Part shown: positions 2,015 through 24,670 of the stretch, one piece after another
Numbering within the stretch: the stretch's first letter is position 1
Layout of the letters: each line of letters starts with the position of its first letter
Virus genome (UHGV): UHGV-0306558
Direction: 5' to 3' (one strand)
Length of the DNA stretch: 25,890 bases
Source of the DNA: a virus
Program-made: the position numbers and the translations under genes
The notes under the pieces: model-generated
Databases searched by the model: none
The model's input: only the letters and a program-made list of their open reading frames with translations
What the model was told of the DNA's origin: nothing

Positions 2015-2089
2015 GTCCTCTTAGTTAAATGGATATAACGAGCCCCTCCTAAGGGCTAATTGCAGGTTCGATTCCTGCAGGGGACACCA
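2015..2089 (+). tRNA. argW: tRNA-Arg (anticodon CCU); prophage integration target
   Basis: 75-nt sequence gtcctcttagttaaatggatataacgagcccctcctaagggctaattgcaggttcgattcctgcaggggacacca with T-arm GGTTCGATTCC, CCT in the anticodon loop and encoded CCA end. Followed directly by a phage integrase. Confidence 0.93.
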
Positions 2090-2250
2090 TTTATCAGTTC
2101 GCTCCCATCCGTACCAGTCCGCAAAATCCCCTGAATATCAAGCTTTCCGTAGATTTACAGTTCGTAATGGTTCGCGTCAGATCGTTGACAGCCGCACTCC
2201 ATGACGGGTAAAAAGTGGATAAAATAATTTTACCCACCGGATTTTTACCC

Positions 2251-3405
2251 ATGCTCACCGTTAAGCAGATTGAAGCAGCAAAGCCGAAAGAAAAACCATA
2301 CCGCCTTCTCGATGGTAATGGCCTGTACCTTTATGTCCCTGTATCAGGGAAAAAGGTATGGCAACTTCGCTACAAGATTGACGGTAAGGAAAAAATACTG
2401 ACCGTAGGAAAATATCCACTAATGACTTTGCAGGAGGCAAGAGATAAAGCATGGACTGCGAGGAAAGACATCTCGGTTGGCATCGATCCGGTAAAAGCGA
2501 AAAAGGCTTCGTCTAACAACAATTCCTTTAGCGCCATTTACAAGGAATGGCACGAGCACAAGAAGCAAGTCTGGTCTGTAGGATATGCGACTGAACTTGC
2601 CAAAATGTTTGACGACGACATTTTACCTATCATTGGCGGCCTTGAAATTCAGGATATTGAGCCGATGCAACTGCTGGAAGTAATCCGCAGGTTTGAAGAT
2701 CGCGGTGCAATGGAGCGAGCCAACAAAGCCCGCAGAAGATGCGGCGAGGTTTTCCGTTATGCTATTGTCACTGGTAGGGCTAAATATAACCCGGCACCTG
2801 ACCTTGCTGACGCCATGAAGGGATACCGCAAGAAGAACTTCCCGTTTCTTCCAGCAGACCAGATCCCTGCATTCAACAAAGCACTGGCAACATTTTCAGG
2901 AAGTATCGTATCGCTCATTGCGACCAAAGTTTTACGCTACACAGCCCTAAGAACGAAAGAGCTTCGTTCCATGCAATGGAAGAACGTCGATTTTGAAAAC
3001 AGGATTATCACTATCGACGCCAGTGTGATGAAGGGACGCAAAATTCATGTGGTTCCTATGTCAGACCAGGTGGTTGAACTTCTCACTACGCTAAGCTCAA
3101 TCACCAAACCAGTATCAGAGTTTGTTTTTGCCGGGCGCAACGATAAGAAGAAGCCAATCTGCGAGAACGCGGTATTGCTTGTGATCAAACAAATCGGCTA
3201 TGAGGGTCTGGAAAGCGGTCACGGATTCAGGCATGAATTCAGCACGATTATGAACGAGCACGAATGGCCCGCTGATGCTATTGAAGTGCAACTGGCACAT
3301 GCCAACGGCGGATCTGTGCGCGGGATTTACAACCATGCTCAGTATCTGGATAAGCGCAGAGAAATGATGCAGTGGTGGGCTGATTTCATTGACGGAAAAG
3401 CATGA
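2251..3405 (+). CDS. int: Tyrosine integrase, P4 family (IntS-like)
   Basis: ORF adjacent to the tRNA and transcribed away from it. Sequence from MLTVKQIEAAKPKEKPYRLLDG closely resembles K-12 CPS-53 IntS as recalled. Track start at 2215 is GTG; the ATG at 2251 is the likely start. Confidence 0.9.
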   Translation: MLTVKQIEAAKPKEKPYRLLDGNGLYLYVPVSGKKVWQLRYKIDGKEKILTVGKYPLMTLQEARDKAWTARKDISVGIDPVKAKKASSNNNSFSAIYKEWHEHKKQVWSVGYATELAKMFDDDILPIIGGLEIQDIEPMQLLEVIRRFEDRGAMERANKARRRCGEVFRYAIVTGRAKYNPAPDLADAMKGYRKKNFPFLPADQIPAFNKALATFSGSIVSLIATKVLRYTALRTKELRSMQWKNVDFENRIITIDASVMKGRKIHVVPMSDQVVELLTTLSSITKPVSEFVFAGRNDKKKPICENAVLLVIKQIGYEGLESGHGFRHEFSTIMNEHEWPADAIEVQLAHANGGSVRGIYNHAQYLDKRREMMQWWADFIDGKA

Positions 3406-6407: not shown

Positions 6408-6475
6408 GTCAATATTTCCTAATCCGATTTGTTGATACCGAAGCCCTGACTGTTCCCGCAGTTGGGGCTTCAACT

Positions 6476-21427: not shown

Positions 21428-21517
21428 TTATTTCCCTTCTGCTTGCTTATCCCATTCATCGCGGAATTTGGATGGGTTGTCGAAGCCCTGAGAGCCTGAA
21501 CAAACTTTGATTACCAT
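21428..21517 (-). CDS. Tiny ORF (29 aa) translationally coupled just upstream of the terminase small subunit gene
   Basis: [29 protein letters not shown]; its ATG overlaps the upstream stop (TAATG) and GGAG lies 7 nt upstream. Below the 60-aa cutoff of the ORF track. Confidence 0.3.
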
Positions 21518-21711
21518 TACTTAGCTCCTTTCTGCTTGCCTGTGTTTGATGTCGTTTCAGCAGCAGCCCCAGAGCAATTAACGCTACCCGCAACACCATA
21601 TCCATAACCAGTCTTGAAGAAATTTTTGCCAGTAAATTGGTTAACAATCTTCCCGCAGCACGGGCAGCGTTGGCATTGGCAATAAGGGGATTGATTATTC
21701 CAGTGATACAT
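21517..21711 (-). CDS. Small Cys-rich protein (64 aa), unknown function
   Basis: MYHWNNQSPYCQCQRCPCCGKIVNQFTGKNFFKTGYGYGVAGSVNCSGAAAETTSNTGKQKGAK. ATG 21711 preceded by AGGAG at 7-8 nt. Five Cys in CxCxxCxCC suggest metal binding. Confidence 0.45.
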   Translation of the reverse strand: MYHWNNQSPYCQCQRCPCCGKIVNQFTGKNFFKTGYGYGVAGSVNCSGAAAETTSNTGKQKGAK

Positions 21712-22084
21712 CTTGTTTCTCCTGAATGAATGGCAGGAAGTGATTAACCATCCTGTCCAGCATGTAACAGTACGTCTCGTTGGCATCTTCAGGCCTTGTC
21801 GTCACGCCGACATCAGAGCAAACGTAAAAGCAGACGTGGGCGCACTCATGAACGAGCGTAGCGATCTGCTGATCGAATACTCCAATCAGATAGCATCGCT
21901 CACCCGTATCAGTGTTTTCATAGTTGCTTGCAAACCCAAGATTGAATGGCTTCTCATCCCCGCTGCCGCCAAGGAATTTATCAGCGTGCTGAAACTGTTC
22001 TCTGGTTGTTGCGAGGTAGACATGTGCACTTTGAAACAGCGGAATGGTGAACGCCGGGAGTTTGTGCCATTTGGCCTTAGCCAT
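21695..22084 (-). CDS. Hypothetical protein with HExxH motif (possible small zinc metallopeptidase-like fold)
   Basis: 129 aa; motif LVHECAHV at residues ~87-94. GGAG upstream; tightly packed after the preceding ORF. Confidence 0.55.
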   Translation of the reverse strand: MAKAKWHKLPAFTIPLFQSAHVYLATTREQFQHADKFLGGSGDEKPFNLGFASNYENTDTGERCYLIGVFDQQIATLVHECAHVCFYVCSDVGVTTRPEDANETYCYMLDRMVNHFLPFIQEKQDVSLE

Positions 22085-22085
22085 A

Positions 22086-22328
22086 TCACACTCCAGCAGT
22101 GAACAGGTCTAACGCTTCCTTCGACTTACGCACCGCTTCGATAGTGCGGGTCGTGATATCTGAATTAGCGCCACCTGACTGGAAGTGAATTTTGAATAGC
22201 TCAAGCTTCAACTCGTCAGTGCCAATGAACTGAAATGCTTCTTCTGCGGCTGCGTTCTGGTTCATGACCAGTTTGTAAATCTCTAACTGGAATTTCTGTT
22301 CTTCAGTCATGGGAATAATCTCTGCCAT
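22086..22328 (-). CDS. Hypothetical 80-aa protein
   Basis: ATG 22328 with GGAG 6-7 nt upstream; helical-looking product. No recognisable family. Confidence 0.5.
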   Translation of the reverse strand: MAEIIPMTEEQKFQLEIYKLVMNQNAAAEEAFQFIGTDELKLELFKIHFQSGGANSDITTRTIEAVRKSKEALDLFTAGV

Positions 22329-22622
22329 TGTTGGCTCCGTTTATCCGTTAAAAGGGATATCAGTTAAGTTATCCCGTGTAGGGTATAAGCCATTGTCGAG
22401 ACCACTCATTGAATGGTCTCTGCAATAACCGATGTCTTTCCATCAGTACGCCACCACAAAGAATCTTTTTTGCCATAAGGCTGGAGGTTCATCTTTCAGT
22501 GGCTGCCAGTGTTATTTCCCCACTTACTGGCTTGGGTTGTTTCGCTGTACTGCCGTAACTGGTTACCCAGAATAAATTCCGGTTTCATTATCAAGCCCAC
22601 CCGTAGATAGGCTTTGTAATGG

Positions 22623-22910
22623 CTACTTCTTCAGAACTGATTCGATGAATTCACGTCGGGGATGACGATAGTTCAGAATATCTTCTGGCATCCTCATAAA
22701 GCGGTTGTTGCCGTCTTTGGCAGTAACAAAACAGCTGTGAACTCCGCAGACATCCGTTTTGATTGTGTCGCTATACTCAAAAAGCAACTGAGCCATCTTC
22801 TCTTGCCATTCTGGCGGCATAGCCTCCATGAATACTCGCGGCATCACGCAGAACGGCGCATGCGTAAGACCAAACCACAGTTGCAGGTCTTTACGATATT
22901 CTTCATCCAT
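22623..22910 (-). CDS. Hypothetical 95-aa protein
   Basis: MDEEYRKDLQLWFGLTHAPFCVMPRVFMEAMPPEWQEKMAQLLFEYSDTIKTDVCGVHSCFVTAKDGNNRFMRMPEDILNYRHPRREFIESVLKK. The track ORF starts at TTG 23030 and would run through a terminator-like hairpin, so ATG 22910 is preferred. Confidence 0.45.
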   Translation of the reverse strand: MDEEYRKDLQLWFGLTHAPFCVMPRVFMEAMPPEWQEKMAQLLFEYSDTIKTDVCGVHSCFVTAKDGNNRFMRMPEDILNYRHPRREFIESVLKK

Positions 22911-22931
22911 CGTCTTTACCTTTGTTGCAAT

Positions 22932-22954
22932 AAAAAGCCCCGCAAATGCGAGGC
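22932..22954 (-). terminator. Intrinsic-terminator-like hairpin plus U-run, 20 nt upstream of the 95-aa ORF
   Basis: Minus-strand RNA: GCCUCGC-AUUU-GCGGGGC (7-bp stem with one G-U pair) followed by UUUUUAUU. Confidence 0.45.
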
Positions 22955-23129
22955 TAAATCCTGGTATTTGTAATGAACTGGCTCTTATCTCAACGCGGCC
23001 CCTTACCGCGCGCCAGATGCTCAATATCAAGCATCAGCAATGAGATGTTTAATCTGGATTCACTCCAGAAGTGTTCACCACCCTGCCTACAGAGCCAGAT
23101 GTGAAGGATGATGAGTAAAATTATCGCTA

Positions 23130-23567
23130 TCATCGAAGGCATTGCGTCCTGATGTACTCCTGCAGGTAGTTAACCTGCGCGGTTATCCTGTCTATTCCAC
23201 TTCGGAGACGGTAATAATTGAGTTCAGCATCTGCTGTAAGTCTTGGGCTTTCTCCATTGCCCATGCGGCTGGCTCCGGTCGTTGACTTTGCACAGGTGGC
23301 GGCGACTTGCAGGCGCTTACGGCCAGCAGAAACATCATCACGGAGACTTTCGATAGTCGCGTTAGCATCAGCAAGCTCCTTTGTGTATCTGGCGTCGAGT
23401 TCTGCTACGTCACGTTGACGCTTCTGCATGTCAGCGATTGTGGATGCGGCCTTATCTCGCTGCTCTTTGTAGGTCATGGCGTTATCACGGTAATGATTAA
23501 CCGCCCATGACAGACAGACGATGATGCAGATAACCAGAGCGGAGATAATCGCGGTTACTCTGCTCAT
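23130..23567 (-). CDS. Rz: Spanin inner-membrane subunit (Rz)
   Basis: 145 aa with N-terminal TM helix ([18 protein letters not shown]) and coiled-coil periplasmic domain. Start overlaps endolysin stop (ATGA). Confidence 0.85.
23192..23368 (-). CDS. Rz1: Spanin outer-membrane lipoprotein subunit (Rz1), embedded in Rz in another frame
   Basis: [36 protein letters not shown]: signal peptide, lipobox LAVSAC and Pro-rich mature region, all typical of Rz1. ATG 23368 preferred over TTG 23374. Confidence 0.75.
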
Positions 23568-24444: not shown

Positions 24445-24472
24445 GGAATAAAAAAGCCAGCATGTAGCTGGC
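24445..24472 (-). terminator. tR'-like intrinsic terminator downstream of the late promoter
   Basis: Perfect hairpin GCCAGC-ATGTA-GCTGGC (24456-24472). On the minus strand it is followed by UUUUUUAUU (plus-strand A-run 24448-24455). Confidence 0.75.
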
Positions 24473-24641
24473 AACAGAGGGTTAAGCAATATCAACTCAA
24501 CAGCTGAAGACACCCTGGCTGGGGTAGGTTGGAAGGCTACTCACCGTCCAGAAACAGAAAAGCCCAAAGTTTTAAACCTCGGGCTTGAATTTGGATTACT
24601 GCCAGTGCGTACAACATTGGCAAAATATCAGATTTACACGA

Positions 24642-24670
24642 AATATATACTTTTTAATCCATTTTTGCAA
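24642..24670 (-). promoter_or_regulatory. PR'-like late promoter (Q-utilisation region) overlapping the 3' end of the Q-like gene
   Basis: Minus strand: TTGCAA (24670-24665), 17-nt spacer, TATATT (24647-24642). Lies about 170-190 nt upstream of the tR'-like hairpin, like the lambda PR'/6S RNA/tR' arrangement. Confidence 0.6.

What the first reader, a model, noticed from the sequence alone, without database searches (positions are those of the whole stretch)
22329..23129. Two long non-coding stretches in the late operon, each ending in a hairpin plus U-run just before an ORF start
About 175 nt after Rz contain no convincing ORF. They end in a terminator-like hairpin (22932-22954) only 20 nt before the ATG of the 95-aa ORF. 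A second stretch (22377-22622, about 245 nt) ends in a hairpin GGGAUA-N10-UAUCCC plus UUUU (22354-22375), 26 nt before the ATG of the 80-aa ORF. It also holds a perfect 7-bp inverted repeat GAGACCA-N9-TGGTCTC (plus-strand 22398-22420). Placing terminators immediately upstream of ORFs is unusual. It suggests genes expressed only from antiterminated (Q-modified) transcripts, attenuator-type control, or small RNAs encoded in the spacers.
Basis: seen in the sequence. Interest (0 to 1): 0.5.

Follow-up and report, generated by a model that had tools for sequence, protein, structure and literature searches.

The report
Conserved hairpins punctuating a phage cargo slot
The two "empty" stretches lie where P22-like and lambdoid phages swap accessory genes between their lysis and DNA-packaging genes: one ends in an ordinary, already-annotated terminator, and the other holds two copies of a 43-nt RNA hairpin, conserved with compensating base changes across many enterobacterial genera and absent from Rfam, plus a 125-nt ultraconserved non-coding core that remains unexplained.

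Summary
The window is a P22-like prophage at tRNA-Arg(CCU), with its Q-dependent late operon on the minus strand. The coordinates are right. Hairpin 1 (22955-22936 plus U5) is a good intrinsic terminator, already annotated in phage epsilon34. Hairpin 2 (22375-22354 plus U4) is weak, fails the terminator criteria, and is deleted or replaced in relatives. "No ORF" needs qualifying: a 50-codon ORF (Sf6 gp65) is annotated after Rz but shows no coding signature. The 95-aa ORF is a real but rare cargo gene. It is the inner stem of a two-tier 43-nt hairpin present twice (22623-22582 and 22429-22387). In 22 unique sequences from genera not used to build the model, 94.5% of positions pair, with many compensatory changes. 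It always lies on the late-operon strand, usually from a stop codon to the next Shine-Dalgarno. It has no Rfam match. Between the copies is a 125-nt near-invariant, non-coding, unstructured core of unknown role. Mosaic junctions cluster at these elements, including the site where P22 carries the pid moron. My best reading: terminator 1 blocks polymerase not modified by Q, and the hairpins punctuate the late mRNA and mark cargo boundaries. The anatomy is shown; the mechanism is inferred.

The parts
22990..23142 (-). 50-codon ORF overlapping the end of Rz (Sf6 gp65, epsilon34 gp67, phrog_11822). It is probably not under protein-level selection.
   Evidence: It is annotated and matches a PHROG family. 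It is intact in 51 of 52 unique sequences, but its variable sites split 10:9:11 by codon position. Amino-acid identity is 88-96% and there are no distant homologues.
22931..22955 (-). Terminator T1: stem AGCCUCGC/GCGGGGCU, loop AUUU, then U5.
   Evidence: It is the best terminator-like site, at -14.1 kcal/mol and z = -4.8. It is annotated as a rho-independent terminator in epsilon34. Mosaic junctions cluster at 22933-22921 (39 of 54 loci) or at 22967 (13 loci).
22623..22910 (-). 95-aa cargo gene, a real protein family that is rare in this slot.
   Evidence: tblastn finds full-length matches at 32-63% identity in Klebsiella, Salmonella, Vibrio and Pseudomonas phages. It matches the C-terminal part of phrog_3527. 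The same arrangement occurs only in phage HF4s and 19 E. coli genomes.
22582..22623 (-). Hairpin A, a two-tier intercistronic hairpin that starts directly after the TAG stop codon of the 95-aa gene.
   Evidence: Model R1 scores it 55.5 bits on the minus strand against 11 bits on the plus strand. Its energy is -18.3 kcal/mol, z = -4.3. Changes in relatives keep the pairing.
22557..22581 (-). Linker with a small hairpin (CCGGA/UCUGG). Its last bases match the 3' end of rha in rha-carrying phages.
   Evidence: The fold is. Two alleles appear. The match to the end of rha begins at ACCAATTAACGG.
22431..22556 (-). Ultraconserved non-coding core of about 125 nt.
   Evidence: It is near-invariant in 113 unique sequences. 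Its diversity is 0.026, against 0.108 at third codon positions of the adjacent gene, and this is uncoupled from divergence of the flanking gene. It is not structured (z = -1.6 and -1.4) and has no Rfam match.
22387..22429 (-). Hairpin B, a two-tier hairpin: GUUAUUG-CA-GAGACCAUUC-AAU-GAGUGGUCUC-GA-CAAUGGC.
   Evidence: Model R1 scores it 63.3 bits on the minus strand against 25 bits on the plus strand. Its energy is -24.2 kcal/mol, z = -6.3. Covariation is shown.
22350..22375 (-). Weak hairpin GGGAUA-N10-UAUCCC plus U4, located at the cargo-insertion site just upstream of the DUF2560 ribosome-binding site.
   Evidence: Its energy is -8.3 kcal/mol and the terminator scan did not call it. ST64T-type phages have deleted it, and the P22 pid locus has replaced it.
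22086..22328 (-). DUF2560 gene (P22 orf80), the first conserved gene after the slot.
   Evidence: It matches Pfam PF10834 with E = 1e-43. Diversity by codon position is 0.037, 0.018 and 0.108.

Best explanation
The flagged interval is the accessory-gene (cargo or moron) slot that separates the lysis cassette from the packaging genes in the Q-dependent late operon of a P22-like prophage. It is built from conserved non-coding punctuation with one rare cargo gene inserted between.

(a) Terminator T1 closes the Rz-linked segment. It should stop polymerase that is not Q-modified, and Q-modified polymerase should read through it. Downstream genes would then be expressed only in the lytic programme.

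(b) The 95-aa gene sits exactly between T1 and the conserved block.

(c) The conserved block has five parts in order: hairpin A, a linker, a 125-nt core, hairpin B and a tail. A and B are two copies of a 43-nt two-tier stem-loop. It folds in the late transcript and, in its simplest form in other genera, fills the whole space from the upstream stop codon to the next Shine-Dalgarno. I infer that it acts in cis on the late mRNA as intercistronic punctuation. That could be a processing site (it has the size and shape of an RNase III substrate), a stability element, or a structural insulator for the next ribosome-binding site. The hairpins and the core also provide the homology at which cargo genes are exchanged between phages.

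(d) The weak hairpin plus U4 marks a third insertion point, where P22 carries pid. It is not a dependable terminator.

Shown here: the anatomy, the conservation, the covariation, the strand bias, the positions and the junction clustering. Inferred: read-through by Q, and any processing, stability or insulator role. The function of the core is unknown.
For: Context. The lysis genes, DUF2560 and the gp3-type small terminase subunit are identified, the large terminase follows, and a sar RNA and a tRNA are present.

T1. Junctions fall right after its U-run.

Cargo slot. In relatives the same interval holds Rha, KilA-N, GIY-YIG, Gp49, DUF2829, anti-CRISPR or Acb2/Tad1 genes, or nothing. The P22 pid moron is inserted between window positions 22370 and 22342.

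Hairpin covariation.
- In alignment A3, 93.8% of cells pair and 11 of 18 pairs change on both sides. None of 500 shuffles reaches this, and slid controls pair at 30-50%.
- In alignment A4, 15 of 17 pairs change on both sides, in 135 cells.
- In 22 unique sequences from genera not used to build the model, 94.5% of cells pair, with up to 4 pair types per position and a nearly invariant U.G wobble.

Strand bias. Pairing is 93.8% on the sense strand against 79% on the antisense strand, with 41 G.U cells. The model scores 63 and 55 bits on the minus strand against 25 and 11 bits on the plus strand.

Distribution. There are one or two copies per phage, only between the lysis genes and the small terminase gene, and on the same strand as the large terminase gene in 23 of the 25 non-mirror matches. 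The exceptions are two loci with a truncated terminase match.

Position. The hairpin starts within 12 nt after an ORF's stop codon in 18 of 20 loci. In most loci the next start codon follows 11-22 nt after it. In several cases the outer stem includes the stop codon and the bases just before the Shine-Dalgarno.

Junction clustering. Homology boundaries cluster at 22636-22621, 22563-22553, 22431-22426 and 22391-22370.

Literature. Internal late-operon terminators are known, with unknown roles. Proposed roles are stopping spurious transcripts that were not antiterminated, or partial termination (PMC8022706).
Against: There is no transcript-end, processing or expression data for this element.

G.T wobbles are also tolerated in single-stranded DNA hairpins, so the strand bias does not strictly prove RNA.

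In this window hairpin A is not followed by an ORF and hairpin B is not preceded by one, so the stop-hairpin-Shine-Dalgarno logic seen in other genera is broken here.

The core is neither structured nor explained by this model.

Within the E. coli/Salmonella pool the sequences are 90-99% identical. Their low diversity could partly reflect recent spread by recombination rather than constraint.

Lambda and the K-12 cryptic prophages lack the hairpin, so it is not needed for lambdoid late expression in general.

The transcript strand is G-rich, which makes it a poor Rho loading site. That removes one possible insulating mechanism for the 290-nt untranslated stretch.
Confidence: 0.5

Rival explanations
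1. The hairpins act at the DNA level as recombination signals. They would be folded single-strand sites or conserved linkers, in the manner of integron attC sites or the "boundary sequences" proposed for lambdoid phages. ORF-plus-hairpin units would then be exchanged as cassettes.
For: Mosaic junctions coincide with the hairpin edges. ORF-plus-hairpin units exist: the 95-aa gene with hairpin A, and the Emek micro-ORF with its own B-type hairpin inserted after the core. Ayreon/mEp460 carries a single A/B hybrid hairpin, as expected from recombination between copies. G.T wobble is tolerated in single-stranded DNA, so the strand bias is compatible with this reading.
Against: There are only one or two copies per phage, and most genes in the slot have no hairpin. 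No dedicated recombinase lies nearby. The nearly invariant U.G wobble and the fixed stop-to-Shine-Dalgarno placement point to a role in the transcript. Junction clustering is expected at any conserved block, because homologous recombination needs homology.
Confidence: 0.15
2. The non-coding stretches are decaying remnants of former genes and insertions, with no function of their own. Their similarity between phages would reflect recent horizontal spread.
For: HK97 keeps an 82-nt relic of the DUF2560 5' end upstream of gp74. ST64T and HK97 keep the last 7 nt (GAAGTAG) of a missing upstream gene. The linker matches the 3' end of rha. The 50-codon ORF shows no selection. Indels and insertions are frequent.
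Against: The hairpin structure is maintained by compensatory changes across more than 13 genera. The core has about 4-fold lower diversity than the adjacent synonymous sites, even between phages whose DUF2560 genes differ by 33% at third codon positions.
Confidence: 0.12
3. The spacers encode small regulatory RNAs. These would be independent transcripts or fragments processed from the late mRNA that act in trans, with the core as the base-pairing region.
For: The core is constrained at the sequence level without structure, as an sRNA seed or target region would be. Stable hairpins flank it. The weak hairpin plus U4 could give a 3' end.
Against: There is no promoter-like site on either strand. 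The BTP1 annotation from RNA-seq and dRNA-seq lists rha, pid and orf80 with no sRNA between them. There is no Rfam match. The 3' hairpin is weak and is deleted in ST64T-type phages.
Confidence: 0.1
4. Attenuator-type control of the DUF2560 gene. Alternative pairings of UAUCC(C) with the upstream GGGAUA or the downstream GGAUA would switch termination or translation.
For: RNAalifold predicts the alternative UAUCC/GGAUA pairing next to the Shine-Dalgarno. The U4 run follows the first hairpin.
Against: Both hairpins are short and weak. No leader peptide or ligand-binding fold is evident. The segment is deleted in ST64T-type phages with the Shine-Dalgarno and start codon kept, and it is replaced by 630 nt in P22. 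No compensatory changes were seen.
Confidence: 0.04
5. One or both stretches encode unrecognised small proteins: the 50-aa membrane-like ORF after Rz, or a 47-aa ORF on the plus strand that spans the core.
For: The 50-codon ORF is open in 51 of 52 sequences, begins with a hydrophobic segment and overlaps the end of Rz as coupled genes do. The plus-strand ORF 22432-22575 coincides with the core.
Against: Neither ORF shows a codon-position bias. Indels in the A-run and G-run shift the frame of the plus-strand ORF in HF4s, Emek, P22 and others. There are no PHROG or Pfam hits for the core ORFs and no distant homologues of the 50-aa ORF.
Confidence: 0.09

Closest known systems
Intra-operon intrinsic terminators of P22-like late operons (annotated in epsilon34, Emek and phage L; discussed in PMC8022706)
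   Same: T1 is a GC-rich stem followed by a U-run inside the late operon, downstream of the Q-dependent start. The same site is annotated in epsilon34. The literature proposes that such sites stop transcripts that are not antiterminated, or give partial termination.
   Different: Nothing differs for T1. Hairpin 2 of the finding does not qualify as such a terminator.
Moron or cargo loci of lambdoid phages, specifically the P22 pid locus between orf25 and orf80 (PMC3573128, PMC8835761)
   Same: The genomic place is the same. The pid insert lies between window positions 22370 and 22342. Relatives have either no insert or another insert at that site, and this window is the no-insert form.
   Different: [quoted passage not shown] It is a passenger of the late transcript rather than a classical autonomous moron.
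RNase III processing hairpins, such as the phage T7 intercistronic sites and the lambda sib retroregulator (own knowledge)
   Same: The hairpin has about 18 bp in two coaxial helices interrupted by a small internal loop. It lies between cistrons of a long phage polycistronic mRNA.
   Different: No cleavage data exist for it. Its sequence is much more conserved (CA/GA internal loop, a fixed U.G wobble) than RNase III needs, which hints at another or an additional partner.
REP-type intercistronic stabiliser hairpins of E. coli operons, for example malE-malF (own knowledge)
   Same: Both are stable stem-loops without a U-run, placed between a stop codon and the next gene.
   Different: The hairpin here has no sequence similarity to REP elements and is not dispersed. 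It occurs in one or two copies, confined to one interval of phage late operons.
Integron attC sites (own knowledge)
   Same: Both are strand-specific imperfect hairpins immediately 3' of promoterless ORFs in an array of exchangeable genes.
   Different: The R/L box consensus is absent, no integron integrase is present, and most cargo genes lack a hairpin.
Rfam families
   Same: None matches.
   Different: No family matches hairpin A, hairpin B or the core, even at E values up to 10.

Membership tests
Intrinsic (rho-independent) terminator: hairpin 1 (T1) | A GC-rich stem of at least 5 bp with a loop of 3-8 nt | tested here: met
   The stem has 8 pairs (6 G-C) and the loop is 4 nt. The energy is -14.1 kcal/mol.
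Intrinsic (rho-independent) terminator: hairpin 1 (T1) | A U-rich tract directly after the stem | tested here: met
   UUUUUAUU follows the stem directly.
Intrinsic (rho-independent) terminator: hairpin 1 (T1) | Transcript 3' ends at the U-tract, and read-through by Q-modified polymerase | not testable with these tools
   This needs Term-seq or reporter assays.
Intrinsic (rho-independent) terminator: hairpin 2 | A GC-rich stem with a loop of 3-8 nt | tested here: not met
   The stem has 6 pairs (3 G-C) and the loop is 10 nt. The energy is -8.3 kcal/mol and the scan did not call it.
Intrinsic (rho-independent) terminator: hairpin 2 | At least 5 U within the 8 nt after the stem | tested here: not met
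   The sequence after the stem is UUUUAACG, which has 4 U.
Moron (autonomous accessory locus in a late operon) | It is inserted between genes that are adjacent in related phages | tested here: met
   ST64T and phage L go from Rz directly to the conserved block. Other phages carry different genes there.
Moron (autonomous accessory locus in a late operon) | It has its own promoter and its own terminator | tested here: not met
   No promoter-like site lies near the 95-aa gene. Hairpin A, downstream of it, has no U-run.
Moron (autonomous accessory locus in a late operon) | Its base composition differs from its neighbours | tested here: not met
   GC is 0.45-0.50 across the interval with no step.
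Bacterial small RNA gene | It has its own promoter and a terminator with a U-tail, giving a discrete transcript | tested here: not met
   There is no promoter-like site. No sRNA is annotated at the homologous BTP1 locus. Only a weak 3' hairpin is present.
RNase III processing site | About two helical turns of double-stranded RNA, often with an internal loop | tested here: met
   The helices are 7-8 bp and 10 bp, separated by a 2x2 internal loop.
RNase III processing site | Cleavage by RNase III | not testable with these tools
   This needs in vitro cleavage or end mapping in an rnc mutant.
Integron attC recombination site | R''/L''-L'/R' boxes, extrahelical bases and an integron integrase | tested here: not met
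   The consensus CAUUACA...GAUAAUG does not fit the R boxes. There are only one or two copies per phage. No integron integrase was seen among the genes called in the interval, although the prophage's own integrase lies elsewhere.
Any Rfam family | A score at or near the family's gathering threshold | tested here: not met
   Only sar and a tRNA match elsewhere in the window. The weak hits in the interval score 13-17 bits, against thresholds of 42-90 bits.

The most novel reading that the evidence does not exclude
The 43-nt two-tier hairpin would be a specific recognition element, not just a passive stem. Its defining features are the CA/GA internal loop, an invariant A-U pair, a nearly invariant U.G wobble, and a stop codon and Shine-Dalgarno clamped at its base. 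A host or phage factor would read it to cut, stabilise or translationally couple the late mRNA exactly at cargo boundaries. Together with the ultraconserved core, it would form a standard plug-in socket. That socket would let lambdoid and P22-like phages of many enterobacterial genera swap accessory and anti-defence genes into the late operon without disturbing expression of the packaging genes.
Probability: 0.15. Interest if true: 0.8.

Novelty: new member of a known kind. Interest (0 to 1): 0.55.

Why it matters
The interval between the lysis and packaging genes is where these phages carry Rha, KilA-N, nucleases, anti-CRISPR and anti-CBASS genes and the P22 pid locus. A conserved, covarying RNA hairpin and an ultraconserved core at the boundaries of this slot would give a concrete handle on three questions:
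- How cargo genes are expressed from the late transcript.
- Why the same junctions recur in mosaic phage genomes.
- How to recognise cargo slots in prophages automatically.

The hairpin is also a clean candidate for a new RNA family. It is short, strand-specific, supported by many compensatory changes, and easy to test in P22, HK97, HK620 or Sf6. The terminator part of the finding is ordinary and already annotated.

Tried and rejected
1. Rfam, at gathering thresholds and at E values up to 10, on the window and on five divergent loci: nothing matched the interval.
2. Coding tests on every ORF in both stretches: there was no codon-position bias, frames were broken by homopolymer indels, and the core ORFs had no PHROG or Pfam hit.
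3. Promoter scan for sRNA or moron promoters: none was found in the interval.
4. Literature and supplements for a known sRNA or element: the BTP1 tables list none between rha and pid, and the pid papers describe only the insert.
5. Covariation in the first stretch: only one-sided or pair-breaking changes appeared, so there is no support for structure beyond T1.
6. Structure in the core: not significant on either strand.
7. The idea that A-linker-core-B arose by simple deletion of rha: only the last ~12 nt of rha match, and the sequence upstream of rha does not match hairpin A.
8. Rho loading on the untranslated stretch: the transcript strand is G-rich, so this is unlikely.
9. GC-composition step for the cargo gene: none.
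10. Model search in lambda and in K-12 DLP12 and Qin, which would have given access to K-12 data: no copies.
11. Whether T1 belongs to the hairpin family: it shares the 5' flank CAUUACAAA by eye, but the model does not score it.
12. HK97 gp73 as a full-length relative of the 95-aa protein: no similarity.
Full report
**Context**

The window is a P22-like (Lederbergvirus-type) prophage integrated next to tRNA-Arg(CCU), with an integrase gene beside it. A sar antisense RNA of the immI region lies at 6409-6475. The late operon runs on the minus strand in this order:

| Feature | Coordinates |
|---|---|
| Q-like gene | 25343-24654 |
| Promoter-like site | 24670-24642 |
| Two terminator-like hairpins before the holin | 24586-24560 and 24472-24456 |
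| Holin | 24344-24027 |
| Lysozyme | 24040-23564 |
| Rz / Rz1 | 23567-23130 |
| Flagged interval | see below |
| DUF2560 (P22 orf80) | 22328-22086 |
| Small ORFs | between DUF2560 and the small terminase |
| Small terminase (gp3 type) | 21422-20934 |
| Large terminase | 20956-19457 |

**Checking the observation**

Hairpin 1 is AGCCUCGC-AUUU-GCGGGGCU (22955-22936), followed by UUUUUAUU. It is the best terminator-like site in the scan. It folds at -14.1 kcal/mol with z = -4.8. The homologous site is annotated as a rho-independent terminator in phage epsilon34.

Hairpin 2 is GGGAUA-N10-UAUCCC plus UUUU (22375-22350). It folds at -8.3 kcal/mol, but it has a 10-nt loop, three G-C pairs and four U. 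The scan does not call it.

The inverted repeat at 22398-22420 is real.

The statement that nothing is encoded after Rz needs qualification. A 50-codon ORF (23142-22990) is annotated as Sf6 gp65, as epsilon34 gp67 and in RefSeq. It is open in 51 of 52 unique sequences. Its variable sites, however, fall 10:9:11 on the three codon positions. Its amino-acid identity between phages (88-96%) is not higher than its nucleotide identity, and it has no distant homologues. I regard it as doubtful.

**The 95-aa ORF**

This is a real gene. tblastn finds full-length relatives at 32-63% identity in Klebsiella, Salmonella, Cronobacter, Vibrio, Pseudomonas and other phages. In this position it is rare: phage HF4s and 19 of 5426 E. 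coli genomes have the same arrangement.

In relatives the same place holds many other genes, or nothing:
- Rha
- KilA-N
- a GIY-YIG nuclease
- Gp49-family or DUF2829 genes
- genes annotated as anti-CRISPR
- an Acb2/Tad1-like gene, in a Serratia prophage

This is shown. It is the accessory-gene hotspot of P22-like phages. The P22 pid moron (PMC3573128, PMC8835761) is inserted between window positions 22370 and 22342, exactly at hairpin 2. This window is the no-insert form at that site.

**The second stretch (22622-22329)**

This is not a private spacer of this phage. It matches 207 phage records at 90-99% identity. Pieces of it occur in 2556 of 5426 complete E. coli genomes. No feature was annotated under the match in most of the listed records, and it was never annotated as an RNA or regulatory feature.

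The phages that carry it have every packaging type:
- P22-like phages.
- HK97 and HK022, where it lies between gp73 and the gp74 HNH gene.
- A lambda-like prophage with a Nu1-type small terminase.
- The Sepvirinae phage POCJ13.

It is non-coding. No frame shows a codon-position bias. Homopolymer indels in HF4s, Emek, P22 and others shift every candidate frame. The ST64T "orf118" is produced by a 28-nt deletion that removes hairpin 2 and fuses a spurious upstream ORF to DUF2560.

As RNA, the late-sense strand folds much better than shuffled sequence (z = -5.5). The opposite strand folds less well (z = -2.8).

**The hairpin family**

The fold is dominated by two stem-loops. Hairpin A is at 22623-22582 and hairpin B at 22429-22387. 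They turn out to be copies of one motif:
- an outer helix of 7-8 bp;
- a 2x2 internal loop (CA on the 5' side, GA on the 3' side);
- an inner helix of 10 bp;
- an apical loop of 3-10 nt.

Within close relatives, every change in B keeps pairing through G.U or A-U on the late-sense strand, with no breaks. P22, Emek, a Serratia prophage and a Shimwellia prophage show double compensatory changes.

A hand-checked alignment of 14 copies gives 93.8% paired cells. Eleven of 18 pairs change on both sides. None of 500 shuffles reaches this, and slid controls pair at 30-50%. Read as the opposite strand, the same positions pair at only 79%, and 41 cells are G.U.

I built a covariance model, R1, from these 14 sequences. 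In the 25.9-kb window it finds only A and B, at 55 and 63 bits. Their mirror images on the plus strand score 11 and 25 bits. In 370 kb of related viral contigs it finds one or two copies per phage, always in this interval.

I then used the large terminase protein to fetch prophages from one genome per species. The model found the hairpin in Tatumella, Pantoea, Xenorhabdus, Pseudescherichia, Rosenbergiella, Rahnella, Proteus, Providencia, Morganella, Citrobacter, Erwinia and an Escherichia species. Apart from mirror-image shadows and two rearranged Shigella/E. coli loci with a truncated terminase match, the hits lie on the terminase strand, 430-2350 nt upstream of the terminase gene. There were no hits in the non-enterobacterial loci, apart from one bin labelled Cellvibrionaceae that carries E. 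coli-type sequence.

These genera were not used to build the model. Their 22 unique sequences pair at 94.5%. They show up to four pair types per position, an invariant A-U pair and a U.G wobble kept in 21 of 22. The full set has 15 of 17 pairs with double changes. The alignment is fitted to the model, which favours pairing, but the size of the effect and the slid controls leave little doubt.

The hairpin has no Rfam match. Lambda and the K-12 cryptic prophages DLP12 and Qin have no copy.

**Position of the hairpin**

In the divergent prophages the hairpin is the whole intergenic region. It starts within 12 nt after the stop codon of an upstream ORF in 18 of 20 loci, often abutting or overlapping that stop. 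In most loci the Shine-Dalgarno and start codon of the next gene follow within 11-22 nt. That next gene is the small terminase, an orf129-like gene, DUF2560 or another gene. In several cases the outer helix pairs the stop codon itself with the three bases before the Shine-Dalgarno.

In this window only half of that logic remains. Hairpin A directly follows the TAG of the 95-aa gene. Hairpin B precedes the DUF2560 start by 59 nt.

**The core**

Between A and B lie a short linker and a 125-nt core (22556-22431). The core is almost invariant in 113 unique sequences. The comparison set was collected with an exact 21-nt match inside the core, so 21 of the 126 positions are biased.

Among 52 sequences that carry the core next to DUF2560, nucleotide diversity is:

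| Region | Diversity |
|---|---|
| Core | 0.026 |
| Hairpin zone | 0.022 |
| DUF2560, third codon positions | 0.108 |
| DUF2560, second codon positions | 0.018 |

Core divergence stays near 2% even between phages whose DUF2560 genes differ by 33% at third positions.

The core is not significantly structured on either strand, is not coding, has no promoter-like site and has no Rfam match. It always follows the stop codon of an accessory gene, for example the rha stop in P22, BTP1 and POCJ13. Cargo is inserted exactly between the core and hairpin B in at least 36 loci. The more distant genera keep the hairpin but not the core. I have no explanation for this sequence-level constraint.

**Mosaic junctions**

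Homology to the window starts or stops at a few places:
- right after the T1 U-run (22933-22921) or just before T1 (22967);
- the 5' edge of hairpin A (22636-22621);
- the 5' edge of the core (22563-22553);
- the 5' edge of hairpin B (22431-22426);
- the 3' side of hairpin B and hairpin 2 (22391-22370, 22340, 22320).

The interval is therefore a series of three cargo slots separated by conserved non-coding punctuation:
- Slot 1 lies between T1 and hairpin A. It is occupied here by the 95-aa gene.
- Slot 2 lies between the core and hairpin B. It is empty here, and holds a micro-ORF in Emek and a Gp49-family gene elsewhere.
- Slot 3 lies between the tail and the DUF2560 ribosome-binding site. 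It is empty here and holds pid in P22.

**Mechanism**

What is shown is the anatomy, the conservation, the covariation, the strand bias, the placement and the junction pattern. What follows from established knowledge of lambdoid Q antitermination is that T1 should stop unmodified polymerase and be read through by Q-modified polymerase. The phage L paper proposes the same for such internal terminators, while stating that their roles are unknown.

What I infer is that the hairpin acts in the late mRNA. It has the dimensions of an RNase III substrate. It could equally be an exonuclease barrier, or an insulator that presents the next ribosome-binding site independently of whatever cargo lies upstream. 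The stop-codon and Shine-Dalgarno clamp suggests a link with translation. The fixed internal loop and the U.G wobble suggest a specific partner.

Rivals are a DNA-level recombination signal, decaying remnants, small RNAs, an attenuator, and small proteins. Each is weighed in its own entry. None explains the covariation and placement as well, but the DNA-level reading cannot be excluded from sequence alone.

**Verdict**

The terminator part of the finding is ordinary and already annotated. Hairpin 2 is not a convincing terminator. The interval is the known cargo hotspot. The new result is a covarying intercistronic hairpin family, together with an ultraconserved core. As far as Rfam and the searched literature show, neither has been described. 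Interest is moderate. The feature is a well-supported new RNA motif candidate in a biologically active locus, with its function still to be found.

Noticed in passing
window 21428-21517 (-); L002 (Emek) about 2595-2666: A micro-ORF family shares the motif GF(D/N)[10 protein letters not shown]. In the window it is a 29-codon ORF ([29 protein letters not shown]) just upstream of the small terminase gene. In Emek it is a 23-codon ORF with a strong Shine-Dalgarno and its own B-type hairpin, inserted between the core and hairpin B.
   Followed up: partly
L007 (HK97) 1796-1877: HK97 keeps the conserved block plus the first 82 nt of the DUF2560 gene as a relic, just upstream of the gp74 HNH gene. The 650-nt interval between gp73 and gp74 is unannotated.
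   Followed up: partly
L006 (ST64T) 1648-2004; L008 (phage L): The annotated orf118 of ST64T and phage L appears to be an artefact. A 28-nt deletion removes the weak hairpin and fuses a spurious upstream ORF to DUF2560, whose own Shine-Dalgarno and ATG are retained.
   Followed up: partly
L130 (Serratia marcescens prophage) 1871-2152: A gene with an Acb2/Tad1 hairpin domain (anti-CBASS/anti-Thoeris type) sits in the same slot between Rz and DUF2560. In phage Huey, genes annotated as anti-CRISPR lie under the same interval. The slot therefore seems to collect anti-defence cargo.
   Followed up: no
window 6409-6475 (+): A sar antisense RNA (Rfam RF00262, 71.6 bits) lies opposite the start of an ant-like ORF. 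The prophage therefore carries a P22-type immI region.
   Followed up: no
window 2015-2089 (+) and 2215-3405 (+): tRNA-Arg(CCU) is followed by a 396-aa ORF in the position of an integrase. This is the likely attachment site (argW type) and the left end of the prophage.
   Followed up: no
window 24456-24670 (-): A promoter-like site (TTGCAA-17-TATATT) is followed by two strong terminator-like hairpins (a 12-bp stem at 24586-24560 and GCCAGC/GCTGGC plus U6 at 24472-24456). They lie between the Q-like gene and the holin gene, in the expected late promoter and terminator arrangement.
   Followed up: no
window 21517-21723 (-): A small Cys-rich ORF (..YCQCQRCPCCGK..) lies between the orf129-like gene and the micro-ORF. 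It has no Pfam or PHROG match.
   Followed up: no
window 22964-22976 (-) and 22610-22622 (-): The 5' flank of terminator T1 (UCAUUACAAAUAC) resembles the 5' flank of hairpin A (CCAUUACAAAGCC), and the stems share AGCC..GGGCU. T1 may be a distant relative of the hairpin family that gained a U-run, but the covariance model does not score it.
   Followed up: partly
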